Source: a virus
Direction: 5' to 3' (one strand)
Length of the DNA: 64,000 nucleotides
Virus record (IMG/VR): IMGVR_UViG_3300023499_000220
Location: 113,645 to 177,644 of that record
Made by a program: the position numbers and the translations under genes. The notes below the pieces were generated by a model that saw nothing but the letters and a program-made list of their open reading frames with translations, had not been told where the DNA came from and ran no database searches. Numbering within the stretch: the first letter of the stretch is position 1; the number at the start of each line of letters is the position of its first letter. This document shows, piece after piece, positions 12,333-44,667 of this stretch.

Positions 12333-12343
12333 AATACATCACC

Positions 12344-14068: not shown

Positions 14069-14083
14069 TGTGTTGCCCTCCCG

Positions 14084-15424: not shown

Positions 15425-15448
15425 TGCTTACTCCTTCCGCGACTGAGA

Positions 15449-24176: not shown

Positions 24177-24209
24177 TCAGTGCTCACCACGCTTTCGAAA
24201 ACGGTGCTC

Positions 24210-25406: not shown

Positions 25407-25637
25407 ATGCCATCCACCTTTGATACCATGGTAGGAAAGCGAATCAAAAAGCAACGAATGGAAATCAATTACAGCCAAGAACAGTTGGCGGCAAGCACGA
25501 ATTGTTCCTATCGCTGCATCCAAAAATGGGAGTCAGGAAAGACGATGCCGCGAGCACAAATGCTATGCAATTTAGCAAAAGCCTTACATGTTTCGTCTGA
25601 CTGGCTGCTTGGTATTTCCAATGACAGGAACGGTTAA
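25407..25637 (+). CDS. XRE-family HTH transcriptional regulator (76 aa)
   Basis: QEQLAASTNCSYRCIQKWESGKTMP is a typical Cro/C1 HTH. Divergent from parM. Confidence 0.75.
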   Translation: MPSTFDTMVGKRIKKQRMEINYSQEQLAASTNCSYRCIQKWESGKTMPRAQMLCNLAKALHVSSDWLLGISNDRNG

Positions 25638-31126: not shown

Positions 31127-31155
31127 ATTATACCACATTAAAACAAGGTAGTCAA
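31127..31155 (-). promoter_or_regulatory. Family-B promoter copy 2 (TTGACT-17-TGGTATAAT)
   Basis: Plus-strand text attataccacattaaaacaaggtagtcaa. Confidence 0.55.
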
Positions 31156-31223
31156 CGACAAAAACCGTCGCAAATGTTAGTTTTCGCATTTACGACGGCT
31201 GAAGTTATATTTTTTTGAGCAAA

Positions 31224-32759
31224 TTATTTTATATCGCTTGCGTTTTCGTCAGGTTCGATGTGTGCATTGTCATCAGCCTTCTCGATTACAGGCAAACCGT
31301 GAATGTTGATATTGCGGTCAGTCTTAGCATTGATACTGTTCGCACGAACGATATCGGCCATATCGATACCGGTAGCTTCCTTGACGGTCTGCATGGTCTG
31401 TGCCATCAGCACGGGAACATTCCCAGACACGCCGGAAACGCCAGATGCATCGCCGCCAATGATAGACACCTTATCGATTGCGGACAAGGGCTGAGCCACA
31501 TTCTTAGCAATATCAGGCAGGACCTTGATAAGCATTTCAGCGACAGCAGCATCGTTGTACTGCTTGTAAGCTTCCGCCTTTTGCTTCATAGCTTCGGCTT
31601 CAGCAATACCCTTCTGACGGATAGCCTCAGCTTCTGCCTTACCTACAAGGGCAATACCTTCGGCTTCCTGCTGCTTTGCAAATTTCTGAGCCTCAGCAGC
31701 GCGTTCGGCTTCGTATTTTTTTGCTTCTGCTTCTTTTTGGCGTTTATACAATTCGGCATCCGCAGCTTTGCGAACCTCTGCATCCAGTTTTCTCTGCTGA
31801 ACCTCGGCTTCCTGTGCAGCAAGGTCGACCATCTTCTTCTGCTTTGCGATTTCCGCATCAGCTTCGGCTTCCTTGATTTCCTTGGCGCGAAGATTTGTCT
31901 GAATCTGTCCTGCAGCGTTGGCATCAGCAGCAGCCTTGTCAGCCTCGGCTTTCAATTTGGCCTTTGCCAGCTGCAATTCATTGTTGCGCTGTGCAATAGC
32001 AGTCTGGGCTTCAACTTCCTTTTCATTGGCTGCCATTTCAGCGTCAGCCTTTGCGCGAGCAATATCACGAGCGGCTTCGGCACGAGCAATCTCTGCACGT
32101 TTCTTGACGGCTTCTTCCTGCTCAATACCAATAGCCTCAATGACGCCGTGATTGTGACCCTGCGCATCAACGGCGTCTTTTACATCCTGCACATTGAATG
32201 TTACAACTTCGAGGCCCATCTTTGCAAGGTCAGGACGGGCATTTTCGATTACTGACAGCGCCATTTGTTTACGATTTGTGAGAATCTGGTCAACCGTCAT
32301 ATCCGAAACGATTTCGCGCAGGTTGCCTTGCAAGACATCATTTACTTTATCATTGATGCCTTTTTCGTCCATGCCAAGGAAGTTCGAAATAGCCGACTGC
32401 TGACGACCCGTAATATATTCCTTGACATCCTTTGCACCAGATGCCTGAACCTCAGAGTCGAGAACAGTAGAATTATCGCTGTATACCTGAATCGTTACAA
32501 CAGAATCAATCCAGAGCGATACGCCTTCTTTTGTCTTGACACCCGTCTCAGGGGTTTTGACATCAATTTTCAGAAGACGCATATTCAGCTTATCTGCACG
32601 CTGCAGCACAGGGATGACAAATGTACCCTTTCCACAAACGACCTTGGGCTTTTTCAAGCCGAATCCAGTCACAACGATGGCTGCTGTGGGAGGCGCTTTT
32701 TTGTAGCATGTGAATGCGAACAAAACAAACAATACGACAATGATGATTCCTAAAAACAT
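31224..32759 (-). CDS. flotillin / SPFH (band-7) domain protein (511 aa)
   Basis: N-terminal TM segment, SPFH domain, and a long Ala/Glu/Lys-rich coiled-coil (EA-repeat) region typical of FloT/YqiK flotillins. Confidence 0.85.
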   Translation of the reverse strand: MFLGIIIVVLFVLFAFTCYKKAPPTAAIVVTGFGLKKPKVVCGKGTFVIPVLQRADKLNMRLLKIDVKTPETGVKTKEGVSLWIDSVVTIQVYSDNSTVLDSEVQASGAKDVKEYITGRQQSAISNFLGMDEKGINDKVNDVLQGNLREIVSDMTVDQILTNRKQMALSVIENARPDLAKMGLEVVTFNVQDVKDAVDAQGHNHGVIEAIGIEQEEAVKKRAEIARAEAARDIARAKADAEMAANEKEVEAQTAIAQRNNELQLAKAKLKAEADKAAADANAAGQIQTNLRAKEIKEAEADAEIAKQKKMVDLAAQEAEVQQRKLDAEVRKAADAELYKRQKEAEAKKYEAERAAEAQKFAKQQEAEGIALVGKAEAEAIRQKGIAEAEAMKQKAEAYKQYNDAAVAEMLIKVLPDIAKNVAQPLSAIDKVSIIGGDASGVSGVSGNVPVLMAQTMQTVKEATGIDMADIVRANSINAKTDRNINIHGLPVIEKADDNAHIEPDENASDIK

Positions 32760-32774
32760 GGTATACTCCTTTTC

Positions 32775-33005
32775 TTATCTGCAATGGGATTTGCAATACT
32801 TTGACACTTTGCTGGCGACCTCTTTCTTGAATGCATATTCATCACATTGTGCCAAACGCATTTTATATATCTCCTGCTGTTTGGCAACACGAGCCGAATA
32901 GCCTTCGCATACGGAATGACATCCAGCTTTGCGATGTGGGCATTGATAACAGGTTCTAAAAATGTCGTGTTCGCTCGCACTTCCAGTATTGCTGTTCGAT
33001 GTCAT
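32775..33005 (-). CDS. Cys-rich small protein (76 aa)
   Basis: CYQCPHRKAGCHSVCEG plus a C-terminal CKSHC motif. Downstream of family-B promoter copy 3. Confidence 0.35.
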   Translation of the reverse strand: MTSNSNTGSASEHDIFRTCYQCPHRKAGCHSVCEGYSARVAKQQEIYKMRLAQCDEYAFKKEVASKVSKYCKSHCR

Positions 33006-33043
33006 AAATGGAATTCCCCCTGTCTTTCCAATTGATATATTAT

Positions 33044-33072
33044 ATTATACCACAAATAGGCGAATGAATCAA
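33044..33072 (-). promoter_or_regulatory. Family-B promoter copy 3 (TTGATT-17-TGGTATAAT)
   Basis: Plus-strand text attataccacaaataggcgaatgaatcaa. Confidence 0.45.
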
Positions 33073-33124
33073 TGAAAAAAGACGAGCAAGATATTTCTCA
33101 CTCGCCTTCTGCTCTTTTGTGTTG

Positions 33125-34213
33125 TTAGGCTTCTTCGCTGCCTTCGCTATCTTCTTCTTTGCGACTATCCTTAGAGAACCCAACAAAACCGCATGCGCCT
33201 GCAGAAATTCCAAAGATTACTGCCATGATGGGCATGATGAGTCTGTTTCGATATACAGCACCTACAATGAAATTAGCGTTAGCTACCTGCTCCAATACAT
33301 AGTGTGCAATCGCGCAAATTGTAAGTTCAGAAGCGTTACCGAACGATTCATCAAGACCGATGCTGAGCAGCGACATGGAATAGGTTGCACTGGCTACATA
33401 CTTGATTTCGATAGGTGCAGCGGTTTCATATACAGCTACATAACTCTTGCCGGTATTCTTTTGACCGTAGATAGACAGTGTGCGGTAGAATCCGCCTTCT
33501 GCCCTTGCTACTGGGTCGCTTGTCCACTTACCGCCTGTGATTTTATAGGAATCACTGTTCAGACCGATGGCAGACATCAAATCGCTCTTATAACCATCCC
33601 AAAGCGGTGTGGCGGGATTGTATGTGTGGACTTTTCCGAGATAGACATATGCGGTGGCACCTTCCGGAATTACGACTTGTCCATCAATCGTGAAATCGAC
33701 CCATGTATCGGTGTCCTCGACTTCATTGACCTCTTTCAGAACGCCTTCAACTTCCGTACCATCATCAAGAGTGAAGGTCTTGTTTTGCGGGGCGTTCGGT
33801 TTCTTGTCTTCGCCCTTGTACTCCACTGTCATTTCTGTGGGAATATCGGCTTGTTCTTCCGTGTACTGAACATCTTCGAGCGGCAATTCATACTGTTCTC
33901 CGCCCAGCGTTACAGTATAGGTCTGAGGAACTTCTTTTACAGTCAAATCCGTATATTCTACGGTTTCTTGATACTTGGTATTGAGTTCCCTTTGCTGATA
34001 ATCTACGCTGTCTTCGTCGAGGACATAGGTATTACCGTTCTCCTCAATCTCCTTCGGAAGAGGATTGGCATCAGCTTCTTCTTGGTCCTTGTAATTGAAC
34101 TCACGAGTGATATCAATATCAATATCACCAAGAGAAGTCAACGCTTGTGTAGAAATGCATCCTACGCAAAGCAGCGCACTTACAAAAGCAAGCACTCTCA
34201 TTATATTCTTCAT
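33125..34213 (-). CDS. secreted, C-terminally membrane-anchored surface protein (about 362 aa from MKNIMRV; ORF open to 34330)
   Basis: Signal peptide MKNIMRVLAFVSALLCVGC. Acidic beta-rich body. C-terminal TM segment plus charged tail. Downstream of family-A promoter copy 6. Confidence 0.5.
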   Translation of the reverse strand: MKNIMRVLAFVSALLCVGCISTQALTSLGDIDIDITREFNYKDQEEADANPLPKEIEENGNTYVLDEDSVDYQQRELNTKYQETVEYTDLTVKEVPQTYTVTLGGEQYELPLEDVQYTEEQADIPTEMTVEYKGEDKKPNAPQNKTFTLDDGTEVEGVLKEVNEVEDTDTWVDFTIDGQVVIPEGATAYVYLGKVHTYNPATPLWDGYKSDLMSAIGLNSDSYKITGGKWTSDPVARAEGGFYRTLSIYGQKNTGKSYVAVYETAAPIEIKYVASATYSMSLLSIGLDESFGNASELTICAIAHYVLEQVANANFIVGAVYRNRLIMPIMAVIFGISAGACGFVGFSKDSRKEEDSEGSEEA

Positions 34214-34277
34214 AGCTTTTTTTGGCGTCTTAGCAGCTTGTCTGCCTGTACGCCGCCTCCTTTCGAATTCTCCTTTT

Positions 34278-34305
34278 ATTGTATCTACTTTGCAGCAAAT
34301 AGCAA
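34278..34305 (-). promoter_or_regulatory. Family-A promoter copy 6 (TTGCTA-16-TACAAT)
   Basis: Plus-strand text attgta-tctactttgcagcaaa-tagcaa. Confidence 0.5.
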
Positions 34306-34352
34306 AGAAAAAAGCCGAGCGGCTTATCACCGCTCGGCATCCCCATCACATA

Positions 34353-34913
34353 TCAATCTTCATCGACGTCTTCGTTGACAGTCGTGTTTACTCGTTCCTC
34401 TTTCGGAATGTACTTAGGTGTGGGCTCACAACGACATTTGAGTACATATTCACTATCGCCAAACGCAAGTTCCTTTAATGCTAACGGGTAGGCAAAAAAC
34501 AGCTTCTTGGCAAATGCTTCATCCTTATCAAACGCTTTTGCCAGTTTCTTGTAGAAGAACCAGCAATAAGCAGACAATGCAAGAGTGTAAGCAATGGAAT
34601 CGAACTGGAACATTGTAAATCCAGTTCCCAACTCGACATGGTTCATAAAATACCACACCCAAAGCCAAGACGGAACACACTGAATGATAGAGCCTACACC
34701 GTATACCAGCGGATACACGCCATAGGTACCATAGGCGAAAATAAGCGGAGAAGCTCCCTTCTTATATGCCTTATAGGACATTTTCATAACACAAACAAAA
34801 ATAAAAAGAAGTGTTACGGTAGTCAGCAGATTAGCAATGAAGTGTAAGAAGCCAAGCCCCTTCGTACAAAGATGTAAAGTCAATCCTAAATAAAGAATAA
34901 TCGGCATTTTCAT
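34353..34913 (-). CDS. polytopic membrane protein (186 aa)
   Basis: Five or six hydrophobic helices. Downstream of family-B promoter copy 4. Confidence 0.45.
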   Translation of the reverse strand: MKMPIILYLGLTLHLCTKGLGFLHFIANLLTTVTLLFIFVCVMKMSYKAYKKGASPLIFAYGTYGVYPLVYGVGSIIQCVPSWLWVWYFMNHVELGTGFTMFQFDSIAYTLALSAYCWFFYKKLAKAFDKDEAFAKKLFFAYPLALKELAFGDSEYVLKCRCEPTPKYIPKEERVNTTVNEDVDED

Positions 34914-34929: not shown

Positions 34930-34958
34930 ATTATACCACATTTTGCCTTAATGGTCAA
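34930..34958 (-). promoter_or_regulatory. Family-B promoter copy 4 (TTGACC-17-TGGTATAAT)
   Basis: Plus-strand text attataccacattttgccttaatggtcaa. Confidence 0.55.
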
Positions 34959-35155
34959 CTTGTATAATACAAAAAAGATAGCCACCCATTTCTGAGCGGC
35001 TATCTGAAGATTTGAGGTCCACATTCAGCGCCTAAACCCTGTTCTGCTTCCCTGATGACTGGTTTTATCGTTGCTCGCCAACCGCAGGTCTATACATCCT
35101 GCATCGCACTTTGAGAAAATAATCGAGTTTATGTGCCAGCCTCACAAGGCGTCTT

Positions 35156-35860
35156 TTAGCCTACTGCAGTTTCGTCAGCAGGGGCCTCGGACTCAGCAGC
35201 AGAATCAGCCTCGGCAGTATCCTCAGAGGAAGCCTCCTCAGTGGATTCGGCGGCATCGCCATCAGTCTCGGCGCTTTCAGCCTCGCTGTCGGAAGCCTCA
35301 CTGTCAGCAGCTTCAGATTCAGCAGTGCTCTCAGCCTCGGATGCAGCCGCTTCCTCAGCAGGCACGGAGGTAGCCACCAGCAGATTGCCCTCGGCATCAG
35401 CCTGACCACAGTTGTACAGATATGCGAACGCAGCACTCAGATTGTCGAACTTGGACAGGTCAGGAACCTCAACAGTAGAACCGTCATCAGCGGTCTTGGT
35501 ACCGTCGAAATGAACGCTGCCATCCTCGTCATAGCGAACGGTGACGGTATAGCCATCGCTTGCCAGAGCTTCAGTCATATAAGCGGCATAAGCGTTCATG
35601 GTGGTCTTCATCTGGTCCTCACTCAGAGAAACACCATCGGGCATCTCAGTCAGCTTGCTGTTGTCCAGAACCTCAACTGCGGACTCACTGGTCGCGCCGC
35701 TTGCACTGGCAGCATCATCCTTCTTGCCACAACCAACAAATGCAGTGCAGGCCATTGCCATAGCGAGACACAGCGCAGCACCCTTCTTTACAGAACTCTT
35801 GTTAACCTTCTGCATGAGTAACTTCTCCTTTTTCATGTGTGTTTGATGTGCATATTTCAA
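35156..35860 (-). CDS. acidic lipoprotein (234 aa; lipobox FVGC)
   Basis: Signal peptide with lipobox AFVGC. Asp/Glu/Ala/Ser-rich C-terminus. Preceded by a ~330-nt leader containing tandem palindromic repeats. Confidence 0.5.
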   Translation of the reverse strand: MKYAHQTHMKKEKLLMQKVNKSSVKKGAALCLAMAMACTAFVGCGKKDDAASASGATSESAVEVLDNSKLTEMPDGVSLSEDQMKTTMNAYAAYMTEALASDGYTVTVRYDEDGSVHFDGTKTADDGSTVEVPDLSKFDNLSAAFAYLYNCGQADAEGNLLVATSVPAEEAAASEAESTAESEAADSEASDSEAESAETDGDAAESTEEASSEDTAEADSAAESEAPADETAVG

Positions 35861-36040
35861 TCTAACGCAACCCGTGCAGGTTGCAACTGAAAGCAGCGCA
35901 CGATGCTAGTCTATTTCAATCTAACGCAACCCATGCGGGTTGCAACAGCAAACTTACACATTTTCATGTGTGTTTGTTCGATGTGCATATTTCAATCTAA
36001 CGCAACCCGTGCGGGTTGCAACAGCAAACTTGCACAAACG
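35830..36040. repeat. three tandem ~60-75-bp repeats, each with the core ATTTCAATCTAACGCAACCCGTGCGGGTTGCAAC (an 18-bp palindrome)
   Basis: Cores at 35854..35887, 35913..35946 and 35989..36022. The flanking ttttcatgtgtgtttg(ttc)gatgtgcat and agcaaactt(a/g)caca segments are also repeated. Confidence 0.8.
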
Positions 36041-36176
36041 GAGCAATAAGTTGTCATGCATTTTGTACAGTGTTTGTCTGTTTTTTGACCATACAATATG
36101 GTCAGATGCTACTTACTGCAATGGAATCATATCCTTTCATCATATTGTTTGAACAAGCTTCATGCACTATGCTTAT

Positions 36177-36205
36177 ATTATACCACTAAAAGTATAAATA
36201 GTCAA
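36177..36205 (-). promoter_or_regulatory. Family-B promoter copy 5 (TTGACT-17-TGGTATAAT)
   Basis: Plus-strand text attataccactaaaagtataaatagtcaa. The transcript would traverse the tandem palindromic repeats before reaching the lipoprotein gene. Confidence 0.5.
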
Positions 36206-36212
36206 CAAAGAA

Positions 36213-36246
36213 TAGCGCCCCACAGATTTTTCTGCGGAGCGCTATA
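36213..36246 (-). terminator. probable intrinsic terminator of the 2,672-aa adhesin gene
   Basis: Inverted repeat agcgctccgcag / ctgtggggcgct followed by a T-rich tract on the minus strand, directly after the stop at 36285. Confidence 0.45.
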
Positions 36247-36284
36247 TGTTATCTCTTACACGGAGTAGAGATTATTTCAGTTGG

Positions 36285-39200
36285 TTACTGCTTCTTTTCC
36301 TCGGTTTTATCCTCAGGCTTTTCAGCAGCTTTTTCTTCGCTATCGCCATTCTTCTTCTTGACGATGACAAATGCGCCAACACCAATCAGAGCAACAACAA
36401 CGATAACAGGAACGATAACTTCTGCGCCAAAACCAACGCCAGTCTTGTAGTTGACTACAACAGGTGCCGGAGTGGGAGCGGGTTCATTCTTGACTACAGG
36501 AGTCGGAGTCGGTCTGCTTTCTTCCGGAGGATTCTCCAGCTTAACACTTGCTACCCGAACATCACCGTAGTTGCCTGCCTTATCGACTGTACGGGTCACA
36601 ATGTAACCAGTCCAATCGGGGCTCAGCTTAAAGGTGACGTAACCGTTGTCCTTATCAATGTTTGTAACATTGACAGTCTCGAACTTGGTTTCGTCGAAGG
36701 TGTAATCGCCATCAGCACTCTTGGCAATAGCAGAACCATTGACCTTGTAATACTGAATCTTAGCGACACCGGAGTTGTACTCGCCATCCAGAGCGGAGAT
36801 AGCAGGAACGGAATCCTTGACCTTTACAACAGGCACGAAGTCGGGGTCTTCGGTATCATCCTTGCCACCGTTTTCGTCGGGAGTAGCAACGACATCGTTA
36901 CCGTTTTCATCACCGGTCTCGTCGCCGGTTGTGAAGAGAGCGGGCTTACCATGAGCAATACGAAGCGTAGTGGCTTCGGTCTTGTCATTGGTCGTTTCGG
37001 TCTTTTCGGACTCGGCGGGAACCTTCTCATCTGTACCGGATTCGGTTTTATCCTTCTTACCGGAATCTTCCTTCTTGTCGGTATCGTCCTTCTTATCGTC
37101 CTTCTTATCGTCGTCCTTTTCGGGAGCCTTGCCAGTCTCTTCACCAGTAATGAACACATTGATGGTGCTCTCGAACTTGACGAACTTCTCGTTCAGCAAA
37201 TCGGTCTTATTGGTGGAATCAACCTTATCGGCAGCGAAAGCAGAAGCAACGACAGGAGCTTCGGTATCAACAGATGTGGTGATAGTTCCCATCTCGGTAA
37301 TGGCACCGGTCTTCAGGTCAATCAGGTAATAGGTAGAAGTAACCTTCTCACTATTAGCGGAAATGACCATCTTCTCGGCCCACTCAGCATCGGTCAGGGA
37401 ATCGCTGGTTCCGATTGCGTAACCCTTAGGAGCGATAACTTCAACCTTAGAGTTGAAGTACAGGCCACTCAGGTCATCAGTCGTCTTCTTGGTAACCTCA
37501 ACAGGCTTACCGGTCTTTTCGTCAGCCACAGTACCAACGATAGTTGCGGGTTCTACATCGGCAAGATGCAGACGCTGAACTTCGAGGTCTCCGGTGGTAG
37601 GCAGGTAATTGTAGTTGTCGTAAGCGCCGCCAACATACTTGAAAGCGTCCTTCGTCAAACCAACATTACCGAAGATACCATCGATGCTGGAAGCAACAAT
37701 GAGTTCGAAGGAAGGCAGCTTAACGGTTTCAGCAGTCTCGTCGAAAGCGTAACCACTGGTCTTGATTTCGGGAATCTCCGTCTTAGTGCCATACAGCTTG
37801 ACGACGGGGTTCGGGTCGAGAGTAACCGTCAGGTCTTTACGAGCGATAACGAACTGACCATCGGCTTCGTTCTTATCGGCATCGACGACATTGATTGTTA
37901 CTGCGTAATTCTGCTCAACAGCAGCATCGTAATCAGAGGTAACGGTGTAGGTGTAAGTACCAGCGTTCTTGACGTTTTCAGTCTTGAACTGGCTGTCACT
38001 CTCCACGCCGTCATCGCCGCTTGCAATATCAGGAGTCAGAGTAGCCTTTGCATCAGCGGTCAAGGGAGCAGTCTGTGCATTGTCGGTGGTCTTGTCATTC
38101 TCGAAAGGAGTATAAACAAGCGCCATTTTCAGGCCCAGAGAATCAGGCTTGACAGCTGCACCGTGCGTACCATCGCCATTGGTGGCAACAGCATTTACGG
38201 TGAAGTCTGGGTTAGTGGTATCGCCATAGACGATATCCTTGGGCTCGGTGACAGTGACTTCGACCAGACGCTCGCCAATAGTATAAACGCCATTAACAAT
38301 CGTAATCAGGTAATCGTCATTGTCGTAAGAACCGACCATGTCGTATGCACCGTAATTCTTGACAGATTCGGGCACGCTCTCCGCAACCAGAGAAGCAGCA
38401 CCATCAGCAGACTTCATGGAAATCTCTTCGGCAACCGCATTCTCAACATCCTTCTGAGTGATGCTGATAATAGCTTTCAGGTCATCGCCATTTACGATGG
38501 TCTTCTTATCGGCATCGCCAGTATAGGTAAGAGTATTGCTCAGTTCAGCCATTTCATTGCCGTAGACAGAACCAACAGTGCCGATGGTCCAAGTCAGAGG
38601 ACGCTGAGTGACCGTGTAAGTGCCGTTCATAGCAGTTACCAGATAATCCTGATAAGAAGCCTGACCGACGCGGTGAGCCAGACCGGAGAAGGAAGGAACA
38701 ATGTCATAGCCTCCGACATGGCTTGCAGAAGTGACGAGGCACAGGTTCGTGCCTTCCAGAATATCACCATTGACCAGAGCTGCCTTGGCAGTGTCACCAG
38801 TGTATTCCAGAACGTTCACGGTACCGTAATCAGACCAATCTTCAACAGCAACATCGTCGCCATAGATAGAAGTCTGGGGTTTAGCGGTGACAGTGATGGG
38901 ACGCTTGTCGATAACAAAATCAACGGGAGCGTAAACAAAGGTGTAGTTGTTTGCTGCGGCATTCTCAACATTTGCAGGAACGACCTTGCCGGTACCAGCG
39001 TGAGAAGCTACCGTTGCGGGAGCTCCCTCAGCATCGGTGAAGTTGAAGGTCAGGTTTGCAATGCTCAGGACACCAGCATCATCAGGAGTGGTGTTGCCCT
39101 TGACGGGTTTCACAACGAATCCATCGAAAATCAGGTCGTCGCCGGAGAGAACAGGGTTCTCATCGCCGTAAATCTTGCTCTGGGGAGCCAGAGTAACATT

Positions 39201-42200
39201 CAGCGTAGCAGGAGTGATTTCAAAGGTGTTGTTTACGCGGGTGATATTGAAGTTGGCATCATCGCCCTCGATAATCATCGGGTGCTTGCCGACATCTTCA
39301 CCAGCATCGGTGCCAGCGTCAGGACGAACAACCTTCAGATTTGCAAGGTCGCCTGCATCCTCGCTCACATAGTAAGCGCCGTCGCCAGTTGCAGTCCAAG
39401 TCAGTGCGGGGTCAGCCTCACCGTAGACCTTCTTCTGGCCTTCGTCAACAACCACGATTACATCGCGCTTATCGACATGCAGAGAACCATCAACAAAGAC
39501 GATGGGGTCATAGTTCTTTGCGCCCTTGTTTTCCAGACCGCTCATGGTGATGACATAATCGCCAGCAGCAGGACGAGCAGGAATCTCGGACAGAGAACCG
39601 TCAGCATTCTTGATGTTGTAGACAACCGAGCCAGTGAATGCGGAAGCAACGGTGTCATTGTTCTTCAAGCCAGTAACGGTGTAGCTGAACGTGGGAACGG
39701 TGCCGCCATAAATCATGGAGTAACCGCCAGCCACAGTAAAGGTGACCTTAACGGGCTTGATGGTCAGAGTAGCAACTTCCATAGCTTCGGGCTCGGTGGT
39801 GGAAGAACCAACATCGACGGAAGTGCCGGAGCCAGTCACGATGGTGATGGCGTAGTTGCCGTACTTGTTGTACAGAGTGGAGCTGATGGGATATTCACCG
39901 ACATCCTCACCGGCTTTGCGAGTGACAGAGCCGCTCAGAGCACCAGTAGTCAGTTCCAGCGTATTCTTCTTCAGACCATCGTTGGAAATGTTGCCGGAAA
40001 TCTCGGTGTAAGAGAATGCGGGGTCTGCATCGCCGTAATCCTTCTCGTAGTTGGAGAAAGTCAGGGTGATGGGACGAGGAGTGATGGTGATGGTGGAGTC
40101 AATCACCGTCAGGTCGTAGTTGGCAGGCTGTGCGTAGATAGCTTTCAGAGCATAAGTGCCAACGCTTGCGGAAGCAGAAGTTGCACCGGAAGTCAGGGTA
40201 ATGCCCTTAAGAATCTTTTCGGCTTCTGCTGCCTGAACATCAGTAGTAGTCAGCAGACCAGTGCCGCCCTTGATGTAATCCTTCACGTTCATAGAAGTGA
40301 GGGTCTCACCATAGGTCTTTTCGGTTTCGAGCAGGTTGATAACGGCAGTACGCTTATTGATGGTAAAGCGAACATCATTGGTGAAGCTGATACGATAGTT
40401 CTTTGCCATCGTCTGCTCATAGATGTTACCGCTGTAAATCGGATAAGTGCCAGCGTTCTCGCCTGCTTCACGGCTCAGACGAGCCTGTGCGAAGTCGGCC
40501 TTGGGCTCTGCGAAGCTGGTGGTGTTGTAGTCGAAGATGACATAGGTATCGTTGACTGCAAAGCTGGGGTCAGTCTCGCCGTAAGTCTTGGACAGGCCAT
40601 AGCGAGGAGTGATGGTCAGGGGCATCTGATGAACAATCAGCATGTTCTTGCCATCGGGTTCAGACAGCTTAACGCTGTTTGCGGGCTGGTTATCCAGACG
40701 GAAGGTCAGGTTGTAAGAACCTGCATCGTACAGACCAGAAGCGTTCGCAGTAGCCTCAACGGCGATACGAACAACACCCAGAGAAACATCCTTGCCGTCC
40801 ATCTTGATATTGACGGTTTCGCCATCGTGGTAAATCTGAGTGCCATCGGAGGTATTTACGTTGACAGAAACTTCCTTGGCGATGGTGTCGGGCTTCTTCT
40901 CACCGTAAGTAGTCTGCAGTGCGTTGAAGGTGACAGAGACATCAGCCTCTGTGACTTGGAACGTAGCCTGCGGGGCAATCGTTACGATGTAGTTGGGGTT
41001 CTCATCATAAGAGATGGTAGCCTCATAGTTGCCGACAACCGTGGTGGGGTCTTCCCACTTGGTCAGGTCGATGTGGATGTTCAGCGGGCTGCCCTGCGGG
41101 TCAACCACATTGATAGCCTGAGAACCGGTCTCGTCATACAGCGCATAGCTGGGGGTGTTCTTACCGGCAACGCCGTACTTACGGACGCTGTTGGTAGTAC
41201 CCTTGATGGTGACAGGCAGTGCATTGATAGTCAGCGTACCGCTTGTACCATCGCTGTAAGTGCCGGTGTAAACGATGTTGTAGTTGGGGTTGGTGTAACC
41301 GGAAACAACAATAGGATAGGTACCAACACCAGTCAGCTTACCAACGGTATTGTCAACGCCATACTTGATGGTGACAGTGCCGCCCAGAGAAGCGACGGTA
41401 TCATGGATGCCAATTTCATCGTTGCTTGCGAAGTTCTTGTATTCCAGTGCGCCGGTAATGTCGGCATCGCTGGGATTCTCGGAACCATACAGACGCTCAC
41501 GATTCGGAACGGTGATGGTCAGAGTACGCTTGGTGATAGTGTACTTATCGGGAGCATTGAAGGTGATGTCGTAGTTCTTGGCGATTTCAGCAGTCTGGAA
41601 CTGTGCATCGCTGTAAGCGTAAGAGCCAACGGTCTCGCCAACCTCACGAGTCACAACGCAGCCAGCAAAATCGGAACCAACACGGCCACCCTTGCCATTG
41701 ACGGGGTCAAGAGTAAAGGCAACGCCGCCCTTGGCATCACTGTCGCCGTAAACCTTCGTCTGACCGCCCATCACATTGATGGCGATAGGACGCTTGGTGA
41801 CGGTCAGCTTGCTGTTGACAAAACGAACCAGATAGTTGTCGTAACGGTCATAGTTCTTGCCATCGGCATTGGGGTCCCAGTCAGAAGACCAACGCTCCTG
41901 AGAAGCACCCTGCACAGATGCGCTGACAGTGTATTCGCCAACATTGGCAGTTGTAGGAGTGCCGCTGTTGCCAGCCGCATCCACCATGGTAAAGCCAAGC
42001 TTATCCTCGGTCAAACCGATGCTTGCCTGTGTATCGTTCAGCTTGAAACCTTCGATGGATTTAATCTTGCCAGAACGAGCAGCACCATACATTGCGGACA
42101 GGTCATCGAGAGTGACAGTCAGCATTGCAGGATGGATGATGTACTTGCTGTTGATGACCTTGACGTCATAGTAAGCAGTGCATGCAGGGGGAACTTCGAC

Positions 42201-44303
42201 AGTCATCGGATATTCGCCAACATTCTTATTGTCGATATCCTGACGCTGTGTTGTCAGAACCATGCTGACCAGTTTGTTCACACCGTCATCAGCGGTGATG
42301 TCAGAACCAGCGACAATACGCTTATCGGAGGCCACTGCCTGAGCAGCACCGTTATAAGCAACAGCGTCGAAGGTGATGGTGGAAGACTTGCCCTTTTCAG
42401 CCTCACCATAGATGGCATCAATCTGGTCGTTGGTGATGGTTACGTTACGCTTGGTAATTTCAAACGTTGCGGTAGCAAGGTTGATGTTATAGCCATTGAT
42501 AGGCGCATTCGTCTGGATATTGCCGATTGTAACAGTATAGCCACCGGGAGCAGAGGTGATGCTGGGCAGAACAACGGTGGGTTCACCGCTCAGACCAAGC
42601 ATCTCTTTCAGAGCAACTGCGTTGGACTTGTGTTCGTTGTTGGTCTTATACTCGAAATTCGTCTTATCGGTATCAGACCAGCCAGTAATCACGAAGTCAA
42701 CCTGAGGATTCTGCTGACCATACTGACGAGTGGCTTTGCTGCCGGTCGTCTGTACGCCATCATTGCCCTTGAAGACAAATACAGGAGTCAGGGTCAGAGT
42801 TTTTTCGGAAACGACAACATACACATCGCCGGTATTGGGCTGAATGTCGATGTTGTAGTTTGTGTTGCTCTTCGCGGAGGAACCTAAGATGATTTTGTAA
42901 GAACCGGTAGTGTCCTTATCAAAGTTCTCTGTGGTCAGAACATCCGCAGGAAGCAGGTCGCCGTCAACCAGACCACCATTGGTATCCATAACGGTGTAGT
43001 TAATCTGGCTGATGGTATTGCCCTTCGTAACATAGGTGGTATGAGGGACAATGTAAATCTGACGCTTGTTGATAGTCACACCCGTGTCATTGCGGATGTT
43101 TTTGGAAGAATCCAAGTTGGAACCATCAATGATGGTGTAATTCAGACCATTCACAGTAACGCTTGTGGCACCTGTATCAACATAAGTCGGATAAGTACCG
43201 GCATTGCAATGAATGTCTGTGGGATTCTGGCCGTCGCCGTCAGCCGGAGCATACATGATGAAGCTCAGACCGTCGATAGCTGCCTGAATATCCTTTTCGA
43301 CTTCCTGAGAAGTACGGGAATCAGCAGTGCTGTATTCGATGGTCAGACCCTTAGACTTGAAGGAGTCACCGTAGGTGTAGGTAACAGTCTGAGGCAGAAT
43401 GCGAATAACATTCTCCTGACCGCTAATCTTGGTATACTGAATACCAGTTCCTGCGGCAATCTGCTTACCAGTCTCAGCAGCGGTGATTGCCTGATAGTCC
43501 CCGATGACAGTCGTAGAACCGCCGCCATCAAACGCGCTGGCACCGCTGTTGTCTACAGGGTTTTCCTGACGGTCGCAAACCTGCAGATACAGGTCAGACA
43601 TGTCAAGGTATGCGTCCATGACGGGCTCGGCGACCTGCTCATCCTCGCTCAGAGAATAATACATGTCCTCAATGGGTTCCCAGTCATAAACTGCATCCAG
43701 TTCCTCAGTGCGACGCGTGACCATCGCATCAAGAACCGCGTTTTCCTTGTCAGCCTGCCATGCCTTGCTTGCAAGACCGAAGTTGTTTGCAGCAGTCAGA
43801 ATTTCATCTTTACGGCTTACAAGGGCGTTAGCCGCATCGATAAATGCCTGTGCTGCTTCACTGATGCTGCCAGTGGTAGAAGCTTCGCTGGAAGTGCTGG
43901 TGCTTGCACCAGTATCAGAGGCAGCACTGTTTGCGTAGGCAGTGGTCGTTTCAGACCCCGCCTGACTTGTAGCCTCAGAAGAAACATCGCTCGTCACAGA
44001 AGTGTCGCTGGACGCGGAACTTGCTGTGTCGGTAACATCGCTTTTCGGCGCGGGAGTAGTAGCGGAAGAGTCGGAGTTTGTTGTCGTAGTGCTGAGTGCA
44101 TCAGTTTCCTTCGGAGCTTCTTCACTCTGCGTGATTCCACTCGCGCTCTCCACTGCATAAGCAGTGACAGGAGCAAACTGAGACAGGCACATTGCTACGG
44201 CGACAATCGCACTCAAAAACCGCTTACGAGGTTTCTGCATGTTAGTTGCCCTCCTAATAATGTGAGTGTTCTGTGGTTTTACCACAGCCGGATTTATATA
44301 CAC
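36285..44303 (-). CDS. giant cell-surface adhesin with MBG-type repeats (2,672 aa; likely start MQKPRK at about 44240)
   Basis: Signal peptide. About 100 aa Ser/Thr-rich segment. Dozens of repeats of the KxYGxxDPxxTYxV...G...NYxI...GxLTIxKR type. KDD-rich spacer. Pro/Thr linker. C-terminal VVNYKTGVGFG plus TM segment plus KKK tail. Confidence 0.85.
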   Translation of the reverse strand: MYINPAVVKPQNTHIIRRATNMQKPRKRFLSAIVAVAMCLSQFAPVTAYAVESASGITQSEEAPKETDALSTTTTNSDSSATTPAPKSDVTDTASSASSDTSVTSDVSSEATSQAGSETTTAYANSAASDTGASTSTSSEASTTGSISEAAQAFIDAANALVSRKDEILTAANNFGLASKAWQADKENAVLDAMVTRRTEELDAVYDWEPIEDMYYSLSEDEQVAEPVMDAYLDMSDLYLQVCDRQENPVDNSGASAFDGGGSTTVIGDYQAITAAETGKQIAAGTGIQYTKISGQENVIRILPQTVTYTYGDSFKSKGLTIEYSTADSRTSQEVEKDIQAAIDGLSFIMYAPADGDGQNPTDIHCNAGTYPTYVDTGATSVTVNGLNYTIIDGSNLDSSKNIRNDTGVTINKRQIYIVPHTTYVTKGNTISQINYTVMDTNGGLVDGDLLPADVLTTENFDKDTTGSYKIILGSSAKSNTNYNIDIQPNTGDVYVVVSEKTLTLTPVFVFKGNDGVQTTGSKATRQYGQQNPQVDFVITGWSDTDKTNFEYKTNNEHKSNAVALKEMLGLSGEPTVVLPSITSAPGGYTVTIGNIQTNAPINGYNINLATATFEITKRNVTITNDQIDAIYGEAEKGKSSTITFDAVAYNGAAQAVASDKRIVAGSDITADDGVNKLVSMVLTTQRQDIDNKNVGEYPMTVEVPPACTAYYDVKVINSKYIIHPAMLTVTLDDLSAMYGAARSGKIKSIEGFKLNDTQASIGLTEDKLGFTMVDAAGNSGTPTTANVGEYTVSASVQGASQERWSSDWDPNADGKNYDRYDNYLVRFVNSKLTVTKRPIAINVMGGQTKVYGDSDAKGGVAFTLDPVNGKGGRVGSDFAGCVVTREVGETVGSYAYSDAQFQTAEIAKNYDITFNAPDKYTITKRTLTITVPNRERLYGSENPSDADITGALEYKNFASNDEIGIHDTVASLGGTVTIKYGVDNTVGKLTGVGTYPIVVSGYTNPNYNIVYTGTYSDGTSGTLTINALPVTIKGTTNSVRKYGVAGKNTPSYALYDETGSQAINVVDPQGSPLNIHIDLTKWEDPTTVVGNYEATISYDENPNYIVTIAPQATFQVTEADVSVTFNALQTTYGEKKPDTIAKEVSVNVNTSDGTQIYHDGETVNIKMDGKDVSLGVVRIAVEATANASGLYDAGSYNLTFRLDNQPANSVKLSEPDGKNMLIVHQMPLTITPRYGLSKTYGETDPSFAVNDTYVIFDYNTTSFAEPKADFAQARLSREAGENAGTYPIYSGNIYEQTMAKNYRISFTNDVRFTINKRTAVINLLETEKTYGETLTSMNVKDYIKGGTGLLTTTDVQAAEAEKILKGITLTSGATSASASVGTYALKAIYAQPANYDLTVIDSTITITPRPITLTFSNYEKDYGDADPAFSYTEISGNISNDGLKKNTLELTTGALSGSVTRKAGEDVGEYPISSTLYNKYGNYAITIVTGSGTSVDVGSSTTEPEAMEVATLTIKPVKVTFTVAGGYSMIYGGTVPTFSYTVTGLKNNDTVASAFTGSVVYNIKNADGSLSEIPARPAAGDYVITMSGLENKGAKNYDPIVFVDGSLHVDKRDVIVVVDEGQKKVYGEADPALTWTATGDGAYYVSEDAGDLANLKVVRPDAGTDAGEDVGKHPMIIEGDDANFNITRVNNTFEITPATLNVTLAPQSKIYGDENPVLSGDDLIFDGFVVKPVKGNTTPDDAGVLSIANLTFNFTDAEGAPATVASHAGTGKVVPANVENAAANNYTFVYAPVDFVIDKRPITVTAKPQTSIYGDDVAVEDWSDYGTVNVLEYTGDTAKAALVNGDILEGTNLCLVTSASHVGGYDIVPSFSGLAHRVGQASYQDYLVTAMNGTYTVTQRPLTWTIGTVGSVYGNEMAELSNTLTYTGDADKKTIVNGDDLKAIISITQKDVENAVAEEISMKSADGAASLVAESVPESVKNYGAYDMVGSYDNDDYLITIVNGVYTIGERLVEVTVTEPKDIVYGDTTNPDFTVNAVATNGDGTHGAAVKPDSLGLKMALVYTPFENDKTTDNAQTAPLTADAKATLTPDIASGDDGVESDSQFKTENVKNAGTYTYTVTSDYDAAVEQNYAVTINVVDADKNEADGQFVIARKDLTVTLDPNPVVKLYGTKTEIPEIKTSGYAFDETAETVKLPSFELIVASSIDGIFGNVGLTKDAFKYVGGAYDNYNYLPTTGDLEVQRLHLADVEPATIVGTVADEKTGKPVEVTKKTTDDLSGLYFNSKVEVIAPKGYAIGTSDSLTDAEWAEKMVISANSEKVTSTYYLIDLKTGAITEMGTITTSVDTEAPVVASAFAADKVDSTNKTDLLNEKFVKFESTINVFITGEETGKAPEKDDDKKDDKKDDTDKKEDSGKKDKTESGTDEKVPAESEKTETTNDKTEATTLRIAHGKPALFTTGDETGDENGNDVVATPDENGGKDDTEDPDFVPVVKVKDSVPAISALDGEYNSGVAKIQYYKVNGSAIAKSADGDYTFDETKFETVNVTNIDKDNGYVTFKLSPDWTGYIVTRTVDKAGNYGDVRVASVKLENPPEESRPTPTPVVKNEPAPTPAPVVVNYKTGVGFGAEVIVPVIVVVALIGVGAFVIVKKKNGDSEEKAAEKPEDKTEEKKQ

Positions 44304-44557
44304 CCTTACCTACTCCCTAGTGTGCAGCCTCGATTGTAGATAAGAAAGTATATCAAAACACAAGCAATCAAATTGCATATTTACAATATGCCACAAAAAG
44401 ACAGAAAAGTCAATCAAAAATTTTGGCACAAAAATGCCACCCATGAACGCATTCTCATATTTCGTATGGACATGGATGGTTGAAACATTAACGCAAAACC
44501 TGCTTGACTATAGCTATTATTTGTTCTAAGAAATTTGATGCTGTATTTATATCTATT

Positions 44558-44585
44558 ATATTACTTACTTTGCAGCAACGGTCAA
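44558..44585 (-). promoter_or_regulatory. Family-A promoter copy 7 (TTGACC-16-TAATAT) upstream of the 2,672-aa adhesin gene
   Basis: Plus-strand text atatta-cttactttgcagcaac-ggtcaa. Confidence 0.55.
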
Positions 44586-44611
44586 TAATTATTCTGAAAG
44601 TTAGAAGTTTT

Positions 44612-44662
44612 TTACGCAAAAAAAAGAGCGGCAGCTCTTTCGAACCACCGCTCTATTGTTTT
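44612..44662 (-). terminator. rho-independent terminator of the >6,442-aa adhesin gene
   Basis: Minus-strand RNA AGAGCGG...GAGCUGCCGCUC hairpin followed by UUUUUUUU, immediately after the stop at 44668. Confidence 0.6.
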
Positions 44663-44667
44663 ACCGC

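What the first reader, a model, noticed from the sequence alone, without database searches (positions are those of the whole stretch)
31224..32759. Element-encoded flotillin next to a private Sec, sortase and adhesin system
This is a canonical FloT/YqiK-type flotillin: TM anchor, SPFH domain and a long EA-rich coiled coil. It is carried on the same accessory region as the secYGE-srtB module.

In Bacillus and Staphylococcus, flotillin scaffolds organise membrane microdomains in which Sec components, signal peptidases and other multi-protein machines are concentrated. A co-mobilised flotillin could provide the platform for the accessory translocon.
Basis: partly seen in the sequence, partly recalled or inferred. 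Interest (0 to 1): 0.5.

Follow-up and report, generated by a model that had tools for sequence, protein, structure and literature searches.

The report
Flotillin gene on gut Hodor megaplasmid
This is a genuine, well-conserved flotillin (membrane-scaffold) gene carried by a recently described giant gut plasmid, but comparison with related elements shows that its position beside the plasmid's private secretion and adhesin genes is peculiar to this lineage and is not evidence that the two work together.

Summary
The ORF at 31224-32759 (minus strand, 511 aa) is a real FloT-type flotillin. It has an N-terminal hydrophobic anchor, an SPFH domain, an Ala/Glu/Lys-rich helical region and the flotillin C-terminal domain. 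It aligns over its full length with solved human flotillin-1/2 (E about 1e-43).

The window matches the feature set of a 'Hodor' conjugative megaplasmid of the human gut (bioRxiv 2026, PMC12934698). That paper already describes the SecY-SecG-SecE, trigger factor, sortase B and giant-adhesin module. Its main text does not mention flotillin.

- A second lineage with the same module also carries this flotillin, about 77 kb from SecY on one 389-kb contig.
- Five loci of that lineage have the adhesin-to-SecY interval without it.
- In the window, flotillin sits in a lineage-specific four-gene block with its own promoter-like site and terminator-like hairpin.
- Flotillins 75-90% identical occur on SecY-less contigs. 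These include about 125-140 kb phage-like contigs, where the gene lies between thyX and nrdD.
- Copies 81-86% identical occur in housekeeping chromosomal contexts of high-GC gut Clostridia.
- Some close relatives lack the gene or carry truncated copies.

The gene is under strong purifying selection (omega about 0.01-0.05). Best reading: a host-derived, functional membrane scaffold circulating among large gut mobile elements, with unknown clients.

The parts
31224..32759 (-). Flotillin gene (511 aa): N-terminal hydrophobic anchor (residues 1-19), SPFH/Band 7 domain (21-229), Ala/Glu/Lys-rich helical region (about 211-400), flotillin C-terminal domain (365-449).
   Evidence: ORF. Pfam. NCBIfam FloT. 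Full-length match to PDB flotillin-1/2. Composition and hydropathy. Purifying selection.
32775..33005 (-). 76-aa Cys-rich ORF of unknown function, 15 bp upstream of the flotillin gene. Predicted to be the first gene of a two-gene unit with flotillin. Found only in the window lineage.
   Evidence: ORF. No Pfam, PHROG, PADLOC or NCBIfam hit. Present only in L003, L004 and L147. Sequence context.
33044..33072 (-). Promoter-like site (TTGATT, 17-nt spacer, TG-extended TATAAT) upstream of the 76-aa ORF and flotillin.
   Evidence: Consensus scan. Sequence read. This is a consensus match only and has not been shown to function.
31158..31200 (-). Terminator-like hairpin (14-bp stem) followed by a U-run, starting 24 nt after the flotillin stop codon.
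   Evidence: Sequence. RNA fold of -19.2 kcal/mol, z = -3.7 against shuffles.
33125..34213 (-). 362-aa predicted secreted or lipoprotein-like protein (N-terminal signal-like segment ending in LCVGC, C-terminal hydrophobic segment). Second member of the lineage-specific four-gene block.
   Evidence: No family hit. Absent from all non-window-type loci.
34353..34913 (-). 186-aa hydrophobic protein of unknown function. First member of the lineage-specific block. It has its own promoter-like site (34958..34930) and terminator-like hairpin (34338..34314).
   Evidence: No family hit. Absent from other lineages.
35156..63996 (-). Context, not part of the flotillin unit. Giant-adhesin operon: an ORF of more than 6442 aa (44668 to the window end), a 2651-aa MBG-domain protein (36285-44240) and a 226-aa protein (35156-35836).
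   Evidence: Homologues at 84-88% identity in the sister lineage. Terminator-like hairpins at 36245..36212 and 35005..34976. Matches the surface module described in PMC12934698.
11361..16401 (-). Context. Accessory secretion module: zinc-finger 'hyp' (15724-16401), SecY (14084-15424, 446 aa from a TTG start), SecG-like (13814-14068), SecE (13566-13883), trigger-factor-like PPIase with a lipoprotein signal (12344-13507) and class B sortase (11361-12332).
   Evidence: Conserved order in the sister lineage. Described in PMC12934698.
24210..25169 (-). Context. ParM/Alp7-like actin-type partition protein, a plasmid marker.
   Evidence: Pfam. PHROG partition protein, E 5e-29.

Best explanation
The gene encodes a functional FloT-type flotillin. 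It is a membrane-anchored SPFH protein that, like other flotillins, is expected to oligomerise through its long Ala/Glu-rich helices into a membrane-attached scaffold.

It is carried by a 'Hodor' conjugative megaplasmid of gut Bacillota. It appears to be transcribed as its own small unit: a promoter-like site, a 76-aa Cys-rich ORF, flotillin, then a terminator-like hairpin.

Phylogenetically it belongs to a tight clade shared by at least two SecY-module megaplasmid lineages, by related SecY-less large elements, by about 125-140 kb phage-like contigs, and by chromosomes of high-GC gut Clostridia. It is therefore a host-derived gene that circulates in the flexible gene pool of large mobile elements and is kept under strong purifying selection.

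Its most likely role is a general one: organising or stabilising the host cytoplasmic membrane, possibly by co-assembling with the host's own 81-86%-identical flotillin. That would benefit membrane-embedded machinery of the element in a non-exclusive way (secretion, sortase anchoring, conjugation). A dedicated partnership with the accessory SecYEG is less likely.

Shown here: identity, architecture, selection, distribution and lack of conserved synteny. Inferred: oligomerisation, membrane role, clients, host-derived origin and transcription unit.
For: Family and architecture.

Element identity. The combination of hyp, SecY, SecG, SecE, trigger factor and SrtB, plus adhesins of more than 6442 aa and 2651 aa, plus ParM, matches the Hodor description (PMC12934698). 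Exact window-type flotillin proteins occur on at least 1000 contigs, the longest 382,765 bp. One is a 302,730-bp ENA human-gut contig.

Selection. omega is 0.047 within the window lineage, about 0.015 between the B1 and B2 sub-lineages, 0.007 within B2 and 0.05 within the phage-like group. Between lineages synonymous sites are saturated while pN is only 0.08-0.17.

Distribution, from an NJ tree with 100 bootstraps:
- The megaplasmid-type copies form one clade (99%).
- That clade is sister (91%) to copies on GC 56-63% contigs.
- The neighbours of those copies are housekeeping genes: Prismane/Hcp, ThiM, ThiD, permease, ABC ATPase, GH1, TrkA/TrkH.
- The phage-like group C lies just outside.

No conserved synteny:
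- Apart from flotillin, no window gene is shared within 10 kb in groups B or C.
- The sister lineage lacks flotillin between the homologues of 30243 and 35156.
- In group C, flotillin lies between ThyX and NrdD in a DnaE/RecD/ligase/NrdG/dUTPase module.

Independent transcription signals.

Recurrent carriage of flotillins by other plasmids and phages.
Against: - No experiment or expression data were available, so the membrane role and oligomerisation are inferred from homology only.
- Retention in both SecY-module lineages at 87-90% amino-acid identity, as high as SecY itself (91%), is compatible with a module-linked function.
- The window lineage has placed the gene between the adhesin operon and the Sec genes.
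- Truncated alleles and flotillin-less relatives show the gene is dispensable in some backgrounds. That weakens any claim of an important general role.
- Identification as 'Hodor' rests on matching a published feature set.
Confidence: 0.6

Rival explanations
1. Dedicated scaffold. The plasmid's flotillin forms microdomains that specifically concentrate the plasmid's accessory SecYEG, the lipoprotein trigger-factor-like foldase and sortase B. This would let the 7000-aa and 2600-aa adhesins be exported and anchored efficiently.
For: - Both SecY-module lineages examined carry the flotillin: the window type, and contig 181067.
- Their flotillins form one clade (99% bootstrap) under strong constraint.
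- In the window, the gene sits between the adhesin operon and the Sec genes.
- In B. subtilis, flotillins co-isolate with SecY, and FloT shows its highest colocalisation, among the co-isolated (detergent-resistant-fraction) proteins tested, with SecA (PMC4928834).
Against: - The adjacency is lineage-specific. It is about 77 kb in contig 181067, and flotillin is absent from the compact adhesin-to-SecY interval in five sister loci.
- The gene has separate promoter-like and terminator-like signals.
- Flotillins 75-90% identical sit on 19 phage-like contigs (up to 141 kb) and on 12 of the 13 full-length B-type contigs (up to 222 kb) that have no SecY in a sensitive scan.
- SecY and flotillin have different histories. 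SecY is at most 45-50% identical to cellular SecY. Flotillin is 81-86% identical to chromosomal copies.
- The FloT-SecA association in B. subtilis is transient and seen in a minority of foci.
Confidence: 0.17
2. Element-protective membrane factor. The flotillin helps the mobile element's own life cycle independently of secretion. It might stabilise or repair the membrane during conjugation or phage infection, organise the type IV secretion (mating) apparatus, or exclude competing phages or plasmids.
For: - The same flotillin clade is kept by phage-like genomes inside their early replication and nucleotide-metabolism module.
- Unrelated large gut phage contigs carry flotillins 33-37% identical to the window protein (group D, GC about 30%).
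- SPFH proteins form a PHROG family (phrog_200).
- Hodors encode a T4SS (PMC12934698).
- Agrobacterium T4SS and T6SS are reported in detergent-resistant membranes (title of PMC8656257).
Against: - Neither flotillin nor its neighbours match any PADLOC defence model.
- No T4SS gene lies near flotillin in any locus examined.
- No direct evidence for any of these activities.
Confidence: 0.15
3. Passenger gene. The flotillin was picked up from a host chromosome into a variable region rich in TnpB/IscB-type elements, and gives the plasmid no selected benefit.
For: - It lies in lineage-specific or variable regions.
- Three B-type contigs carry truncated alleles next to TnpB-like and RRXRR/IscB-like ORFs.
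- About 28 related loci have the neighbouring 281-aa/VWA gene pair but no flotillin.
Against: - Very low omega (0.007-0.05) among element-borne copies whose synonymous sites have diverged to dS about 1.4 or to saturation.
- Retention in at least four distinct element types.
- A good Shine-Dalgarno sequence and promoter-like site.
Confidence: 0.08

Closest known systems
Bacillus subtilis FloT (YuaG) type bacterial flotillins (NCBIfam NF058507)
   Same: End-to-end match to the FloT profile (positions 9-473 of 477, E 1.7e-77). Same architecture: N-terminal membrane anchor, SPFH domain, Ala/Glu-rich helical region and flotillin C-terminal domain.
   Different: - The score of 261 bits is far below the 700-bit equivalog cut-off, so it is a family member and not an orthologue.
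- No NfeD (yuaF-like) partner gene lies beside it or anywhere in the window. FloT's stable partner is NfeD2.
- It is carried on a megaplasmid.
- It has an extra stretch of about 20 residues in the SPFH domain (about residues 100-121). This is absent from human flotillin-1 and from more distant bacterial and phage copies.
Human flotillin-1/flotillin-2 (PDB 9l3g, 9bq2)
   Same: phmmer alignment over residues 23-472, E about 1e-43, spanning the SPFH domain, the helical region and the C-terminal domain.
   Different: - It is bacterial.
- It has an N-terminal hydrophobic helix in place of the eukaryotic N-terminal membrane attachment (from my own knowledge; not tested here).
- Whether it forms a comparable oligomer is untested.
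Surface-associated module of 'Hodor' conjugative megaplasmids (Yuan et al., bioRxiv 2026, PMC12934698)
   Same: The window has the published combination:
[quoted passage not shown]
- a giant protein plus a protein of about 2642 aa with MBG domains;
- ParM;
- human-gut origin;
- relatives of 240-389 kb filed as viral contigs.
   Different: The main text of that paper never mentions flotillin, SPFH, Band 7, stomatin, rafts or microdomains. Its supplements were not available. The flotillin is therefore an undiscussed gene of a known element.
Flotillin/SPFH genes on other plasmids and phages
   Same: Flotillin-family genes are annotated on plasmids of Bacillus, Priestia, Peribacillus, Enterococcus and Ligilactobacillus, and on a crAss-like phage. 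Fifteen further IMG/VR contigs of 61-181 kb carry a copy 33-37% identical to the window protein.
   Different: Those copies are only 23-41% identical to this protein. None was examined for an accessory Sec system.

Membership tests
Flotillin (SPFH superfamily, FloT/flotillin-1/2 type) | SPFH/Band 7 domain | tested here: met
   Pfam PF01145, residues 21-229, E 2.3e-9, 38 bits against a cut-off of 23.6.
Flotillin (SPFH superfamily, FloT/flotillin-1/2 type) | Flotillin C-terminal domain preceded by an Ala/Glu-rich helical region | tested here: met
   Pfam PF15975, residues 365-449, E 8.4e-10, 39.2 bits against a cut-off of 27. Residues 211-400 are 28% Ala, 16% Glu and 14% Lys.
Flotillin (SPFH superfamily, FloT/flotillin-1/2 type) | Full-length homology to flotillins of solved structure | tested here: met
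   phmmer: 9l3g_A flotillin-1, E 1.5e-43, query residues 23-472. Flotillin-2, E 2.1e-43.
Flotillin (SPFH superfamily, FloT/flotillin-1/2 type) | N-terminal membrane anchor | tested here: met
   Residues 1-19 (MFLGIIIVVLFVLFAFTCY) form the most hydrophobic 19-residue window, Kyte-Doolittle mean 2.76. This is hydropathy only; no topology predictor was run.
Flotillin (SPFH superfamily, FloT/flotillin-1/2 type) | Assembly into large membrane-attached oligomers or microdomains | not testable with these tools
   Needs biochemistry, cryo-EM or microscopy.
B. subtilis FloT orthologue (NCBIfam equivalog NF058507) | Score above the curated equivalog cut-off (700 bits) | tested here: not met
   261.5 bits. 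It is FloT-like but not an equivalog.
B. subtilis FloT orthologue (NCBIfam equivalog NF058507) | Adjacent NfeD-family partner gene (yuaF-like). Common but not strictly defining. | tested here: not met
   No NfeD hit in any of the 39 window ORFs scanned with Pfam.
Hodor conjugative megaplasmid (PMC12934698) | Cluster of class B sortase, hyp, SecY, SecG, SecE and trigger factor | tested here: met
   Window 11361-16401, minus strand. Same order in the sister lineage.
Hodor conjugative megaplasmid (PMC12934698) | Giant protein of more than 7300 aa followed by a protein of about 2642 aa with MBG/S-layer domains | tested here: met
   A 2651-aa protein with seven MBG_2 stretches. An ORF of more than 6442 aa is cut by the window end, so its full length was not verified.
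Hodor conjugative megaplasmid (PMC12934698) | Rep_3, ParA, ParB, ParM/StbA and a type IV secretion system | tested here: inconclusive
   Only a ParM/Alp7-like gene lies in the window. The other markers would lie outside the 64 kb.
Hodor conjugative megaplasmid (PMC12934698) | Genome of about 211-389 kb from human gut metagenomes | tested here: met
   - 100% matches on a 240,696-bp IMG/VR contig.
- 100% match on a 302,730-bp ENA human-gut contig.
- Exact flotillin protein on contigs up to 382,765 bp.
Hodor conjugative megaplasmid (PMC12934698) | At least 90% nucleotide identity to a curated Hodor genome | not testable with these tools
   The curated genomes (Figshare) are not in any searchable collection here.

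The most novel reading that the evidence does not exclude
The flotillin is a core, anciently retained gene of the SecY-module megaplasmids. It builds a plasmid-specified membrane platform, a 'portable raft'. On that platform the accessory SecYEG, the lipoprotein foldase, sortase B and possibly the conjugation apparatus would assemble, allowing export and anchoring of 7000-residue adhesins in whatever host the plasmid enters.
Probability: 0.15. Interest if true: 0.6.

Novelty: new member of a known kind. Interest (0 to 1): 0.3.

Why it matters
In itself this is an ordinary flotillin on a mobile element, and the element and its secretion and adhesin module are already published. Two things make it modestly useful.

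First, flotillin is a so-far undiscussed gene shared at 87-90% identity by two deeply diverged megaplasmid lineages that otherwise share few genes. It is therefore a candidate for whatever these plasmids do at the cell envelope.

Second, its nearest cellular relatives (81-86% identical) sit in housekeeping contexts of high-GC gut Clostridia. The MAGs are labelled Subdoligranulum and Dysosmobacter. This gives a concrete, testable clue to the still-unknown hosts of these abundant plasmids. It is consistent with the Ruminococcaceae bias of their prophages reported in the paper.

The same clade on phage-like genomes shows that flotillins are traded among large gut mobile elements. Their function there is unknown.

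Tried and rejected
- **Megablast.** 24 kb around the gene found nothing in PLSDB plasmids or INPHARED phages.
- **PLSDB 'plasmid' hits.** The Subdoligranulum and Clostridioides hits to flotillin (40%) and SecY (41-45%) appear to be ordinary cellular copies. The Subdoligranulum assembly numbers at least 23 'plasmid' records of up to 335 kb, so these look like chromosome fragments. They were not pursued.
- **Anti-phage defence reading.** Flotillin and six neighbours gave no meaningful PADLOC hit.
- **NfeD partner.** None in the window.
- **Sortase at 34353-34913.** No hit. The class B sortase is 11361-12332.
- **Hodor paper.** Its supplements are not held, so the published presence/absence table could not be checked.
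- **First NJ run.** Timed out and was redone on fewer sequences.
- **One dN/dS pair.** L012-L157 gave nonsense because of a frame problem and was ignored.
- **Cross-matching on complete contigs.** I tried to match flotillin and SecY on complete contigs of more than 300 kb of the sister lineage by record name or contig length. It failed because only 10 kb either side can be fetched and cluster listings show few members.
- **The B2/B3 elements.** B2 carries flotillin and B3 lacks it. Both have the 281-aa/VWA gene pair, and neither has SecY on contigs up to 222 kb. Whether they are a Hodor group with a different gene order or a separate family stayed unresolved. Their contig starts fall in a tandem-paralogue region and not at a fixed terminus.
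- **G1 versus G2.** Assignment of the window was not possible from GC alone (46.6%).
- **Structure prediction.** Judged unnecessary given the full-length match to solved flotillins.
Full report
**1.

The ORF at 31224..32759 (minus strand) is 511 aa long with an ATG start. A Shine-Dalgarno sequence AAAGGAG lies 7 nt upstream.

- Pfam finds an SPFH/Band 7 domain (residues 21-229) and the flotillin C-terminal domain (365-449). Both are above their gathering scores.
- The NCBIfam FloT model matches end to end (profile positions 9-473 of 477, E 1.7e-77). The score of 261 bits is well below the 700-bit equivalog cut-off.
- phmmer aligns residues 23-472 with solved human flotillin-1, and also hits flotillin-2 (E about 1e-43).
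- Residues 1-19 are strongly hydrophobic. Residues 211-400 are 28% Ala, 16% Glu and 14% Lys.

'Canonical flotillin with anchor, SPFH domain and EA-rich helices' is therefore correct.

**2. The neighbours are as described**

On the same strand lie:
- a zinc-finger 'hyp' (15724-16401);
- SecY (14084-15424);
- a SecG-like ORF;
- SecE;
- a trigger-factor-like PPIase that starts with a lipoprotein signal (12344-13507);
- a class B sortase (11361-12332);
- a ParM-like partition gene;
- a 2651-aa MBG-domain protein and an ORF of more than 6442 aa that runs off the window.

**3. What the element is**

Nothing similar exists at the DNA level in PLSDB or INPHARED. The window matches IMG/VR contig 3300029615_000411 (240,696 bp), with both encoded proteins matching at 100%. 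It also matches a 302,730-bp ENA human-gut contig. Identical flotillin proteins occur on at least 1000 contigs, the longest 382,765 bp.

The peculiar gene combination matches the 'Hodor' conjugative megaplasmids described in a February 2026 preprint (PMC12934698). These are 211-389 kb elements of the human gut that were first filed as huge phages. They have Rep_3, ParA, ParB, ParM and a T4SS. Their conserved surface module consists of class B sortase, hyp, SecY, SecG, SecE and trigger factor, plus a giant protein of 7309-7704 aa and a protein of about 2642 aa.

The 'private Sec, sortase and adhesin system' is therefore already published. The main text of that paper does not mention flotillin, SPFH, Band 7, stomatin, rafts or microdomains. 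Its supplements were not available.

My assignment to Hodor rests on this feature match, not on direct sequence comparison with the published genomes.

**4.

A close-relative scan and a sensitive scan of IMG/VR for flotillin returned 52 contigs:
- 2 of the window type (A);
- 13 with 87-90% identical full-length copies (B);
- 3 B-type contigs with truncated copies;
- 19 with 75-77% identical copies (C);
- 15 with 33-37% identical copies (D, GC about 30%).

The sensitive SecY scan returned only 12 contigs:
- 2 of type A;
- 4 with a 90-91% identical SecY;
- 2 at 72%;
- 3 at 49%;
- 1 at 32%.

Only three contigs carry both genes: the two A contigs, and 3300045988_181067 (389 kb).

**5. The linkage is not conserved**

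In the window, flotillin is 15.9 kb from SecY. On contig 181067 it is about 77 kb away, from the coordinates.

In all five sister-lineage loci examined, the order is: adhesin, 35156-homologue, 30243-homologue, 29585-homologue, and so on to hyp, SecY, SecG, SecE, trigger factor and SrtB. This interval is compact and contains no flotillin (L038-L041; L228 from a 368-kb contig).

The window lineage has an extra four-gene block between the homologues of 35156 and 30243. The block holds a 186-aa membrane protein, a 362-aa secreted or lipoprotein-like protein, a 76-aa Cys-rich ORF and flotillin (31224-34913). The other three genes have no counterpart in any non-window-type locus.

Within 10 kb of flotillin, no other window gene is shared with groups B or C.

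**6. Transcription signals**

These are consensus or folding matches only.

- An extended -10 promoter-like site (33072..33044) precedes the 76-aa ORF and flotillin.
- A 14-bp hairpin with a U-run follows the flotillin stop codon (-19.2 kcal/mol, z = -3.7).
- The next gene has its own promoter-like site (31155..31127).
- Terminator-like hairpins at 36245..36212, 35005..34976 and 34338..34314 separate the adhesin genes from the block.

Flotillin therefore looks like an independent two-gene unit. It does not look like part of the adhesin or Sec operons.

**7. Where else the gene lives**

*Group C.* These contigs are 124-141 kb, with flotillin about 15 kb from one end. The flotillin is embedded in a conserved replication and nucleotide-metabolism module: DnaE, RecD-like helicase, DNA ligase, ThyX, a small protein, flotillin, NrdD, and further on NrdG, dUTPase and a methyltransferase. 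The gene names are my reading of the sequences. The 'phage' label rests on this gene content and on IMG/VR filing. No structural gene was inspected. None of these contigs has a SecY.

*Chromosomal copies.* In GTDB genomes and ENA metagenomes, many copies 81-86% identical sit on contigs with GC 56-63%. Their neighbours are housekeeping genes: Prismane/Hcp, hydroxyethylthiazole kinase, phosphomethylpyrimidine kinase, a permease, an ABC ATPase, GH1, and TrkA/TrkH. These are chromosomal flotillins of high-GC gut Clostridia. The MAG labels are Subdoligranulum variabile and Dysosmobacter segnis.

*Tree.* An NJ tree (320 columns, 100 bootstraps) gives the following:
- the A and B copies form one clade (99%);
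- that clade is sister to the high-GC chromosomal clade (91%);
- group C lies just outside;
- the whole clade of at least 74% identity has 100% support;
- the next relatives are 53-56% identical;
- ordinary Lachnospiraceae flotillins are about 47% identical.

By contrast, the accessory SecY is at most 45-50% identical to any cellular SecY seen. The two genes therefore have different histories.

**8. Flexibility**

- Three B-type contigs carry flotillin truncated after residue 108 or about 260, next to TnpB-like and RRXRR/IscB-like ORFs.
- A scan with the VWA gene that lies just downstream of flotillin in most B contigs found 57 loci.
- In about 28 of them, the VWA gene (93-98% identical protein) and its 281-aa neighbour are present, but flotillin is absent from the locus. 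It is also absent from the whole contig, judging from the contig list.
- The similarity between the flotillin-bearing and flotillin-less versions starts exactly at the 281-aa gene. A TnpB-like gene lies in the alternative upstream region.
- The VWA-SecY spacing of about 61 kb is the same on contigs 181067 and 183752. This confirms the arrangement on two independent assemblies and explains why 183752 ends just short of flotillin.

One question stays unresolved. It concerns the flotillin-bearing B2 and flotillin-less B3 elements, which have no SecY on contigs up to 222 kb. They could be a Hodor group with another gene order, or a separate family.

**9. Selection**

Element-borne copies are under strong purifying selection (Nei-Gojobori estimates):

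| Comparison | omega |
|---|---|
| Within the window lineage | 0.047 |
| Between B sub-lineages (dS about 1.4-1.5) | about 0.015 |
| Within B2 | 0.007 |
| Within C | 0.05 |

Between lineages, synonymous sites are saturated while pN is 0.08-0.17. The gene is therefore functional and its divergence is old.

**10. Interpretation**

The best-supported reading is a functional, host-derived FloT-type membrane scaffold. It circulates among large mobile elements of gut Clostridia and is retained by the SecY-module megaplasmids.

Its clients are unknown. A general membrane-organising or stabilising role fits the distribution best. It might act by co-assembly with the host's closely related flotillin.

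The dedicated-scaffold idea remains possible. It has element-level co-occurrence and shared ancestry of the two megaplasmid copies in its favour. It lacks synteny, operon and distribution support.

Its literature premise is also weaker than stated. In B. subtilis, FloT coincides with SecA in about 22% of foci and only transiently. Its stable partner is NfeD2 (PMC4928834). The window has no NfeD gene.

A defence role found no support in PADLOC.

**11. Verdict**

The gene is a new member of a known kind, sitting on an already described element. Interest is modest.

The most useful by-products are two. Flotillin appears to be one of the few genes shared by the two megaplasmid lineages. Its phylogeny also points to high-GC Ruminococcaceae/Oscillospirales as candidate hosts. 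This is consistent with the Ruminococcaceae-dominated host range reported for two of the four cross-family Hodor-associated prophage clusters.

Noticed in passing
window 12344-13507 (-): The 'trigger factor' of the accessory Sec module (TIGR00115, E 2.6e-50; FKBP_C plus Trigger_C) begins with a lipoprotein-type signal, MKKNAKEILAVISAACIALTAC, with lipobox LTAC. It would then be an extracytoplasmic, membrane-tethered foldase, PrsA-like in role. It would not be a ribosome-associated cytosolic trigger factor.
   Followed up: partly
L171, L163, L164, L175, L177, L155, L069 (flotillin at about 10001-11450 in each): Flotillins 81-86% identical to the plasmid copy lie in housekeeping chromosomal contexts on GC 56-63% contigs. 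The MAGs are labelled Subdoligranulum variabile and Dysosmobacter segnis. This is a possible clue to the unknown hosts of Hodor megaplasmids.
   Followed up: partly
L017-L035 and L050 (flotillin at 10001-11500): Phage-like IMG/VR contigs of about 125-140 kb (GC 41-43%) carry a 75-77% identical flotillin between ThyX and NrdD. It sits inside a DnaE, RecD, ligase, NrdG, dUTPase and methyltransferase module. The role of a flotillin in such a module is unexplained.
   Followed up: partly
L051-L062 and L064-L066; also L002 (MT835492.1): A separate set of contigs of 61-181 kb with GC about 30% carries a flotillin 33-37% identical to the window protein, among many small ORFs and a NAMPT-like gene. 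Flotillin capture by large gut phages seems recurrent.
   Followed up: no
L048 (705-1493), L049 (9983-10825), L063 (9983-10312): Truncated flotillin alleles of 109-280 aa in B-type contigs. TnpB-like and RRXRR/IscB-like ORFs lie immediately beside them.
   Followed up: partly
L229-L270 (VWA gene at about 10001-11620): A 281-aa gene plus a VWA-domain gene form a conserved pair on at least 42 IMG/VR contigs. Upstream of the pair is a variable region. It holds flotillin in 11 loci, and other genes, including a TnpB-like one, in about 28. The same pair lies about 61 kb from SecY on contigs 181067 and 183752.
   Followed up: partly
L042, L043 (SecY at 10001-11260): An accessory-type SecY 72% identical to the window's lies on 90-97 kb contigs of GC about 43%. 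It has a SecE (about 42% identical). No recognisable homologues of the trigger factor, sortase B or adhesins were found within 10 kb. These may be more distant elements with a private SecYE.
   Followed up: no
window 10495-10812 (-) and 10868-11197 (-): Two adjacent small membrane-protein genes (105 and 109 aa) are clearly paralogous. Both share the motif ...W....A.DWDG..EAK..K.., just downstream of the sortase B gene. Function unknown.
   Followed up: no
window 23712-28457 (-): A ParM/Alp7-like actin gene (24210-25169) has a small basic protein downstream (23712-24176). Two large upstream ORFs overlap by 8 bp. One of them (26976-28457) has a weak DUF2325 match. A 25%-identical DUF2325 protein lies about 9 kb upstream of flotillin in the B1-type loci (L007, L015, L227).
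   Followed up: no
window 3056-3838, 4813-5610, 7538-7759, 8384-8911 (all -): Other recognisable genes in the window: a radical-SAM protein, an Api92-like DUF1281_C protein, a DUF4314 protein and a PIN-domain protein. The rest of the first 30 kb is made of ORFs with no family match.
   Followed up: no
window 93-437 (-); L149: The 114-aa ORF at the start of the window has a 94%-identical homologue within 10 kb of flotillin on a B2-type ENA contig (ERZ772858 NODE_530). This is a higher identity than flotillin itself between these lineages and hints at recent exchange.
   Followed up: no
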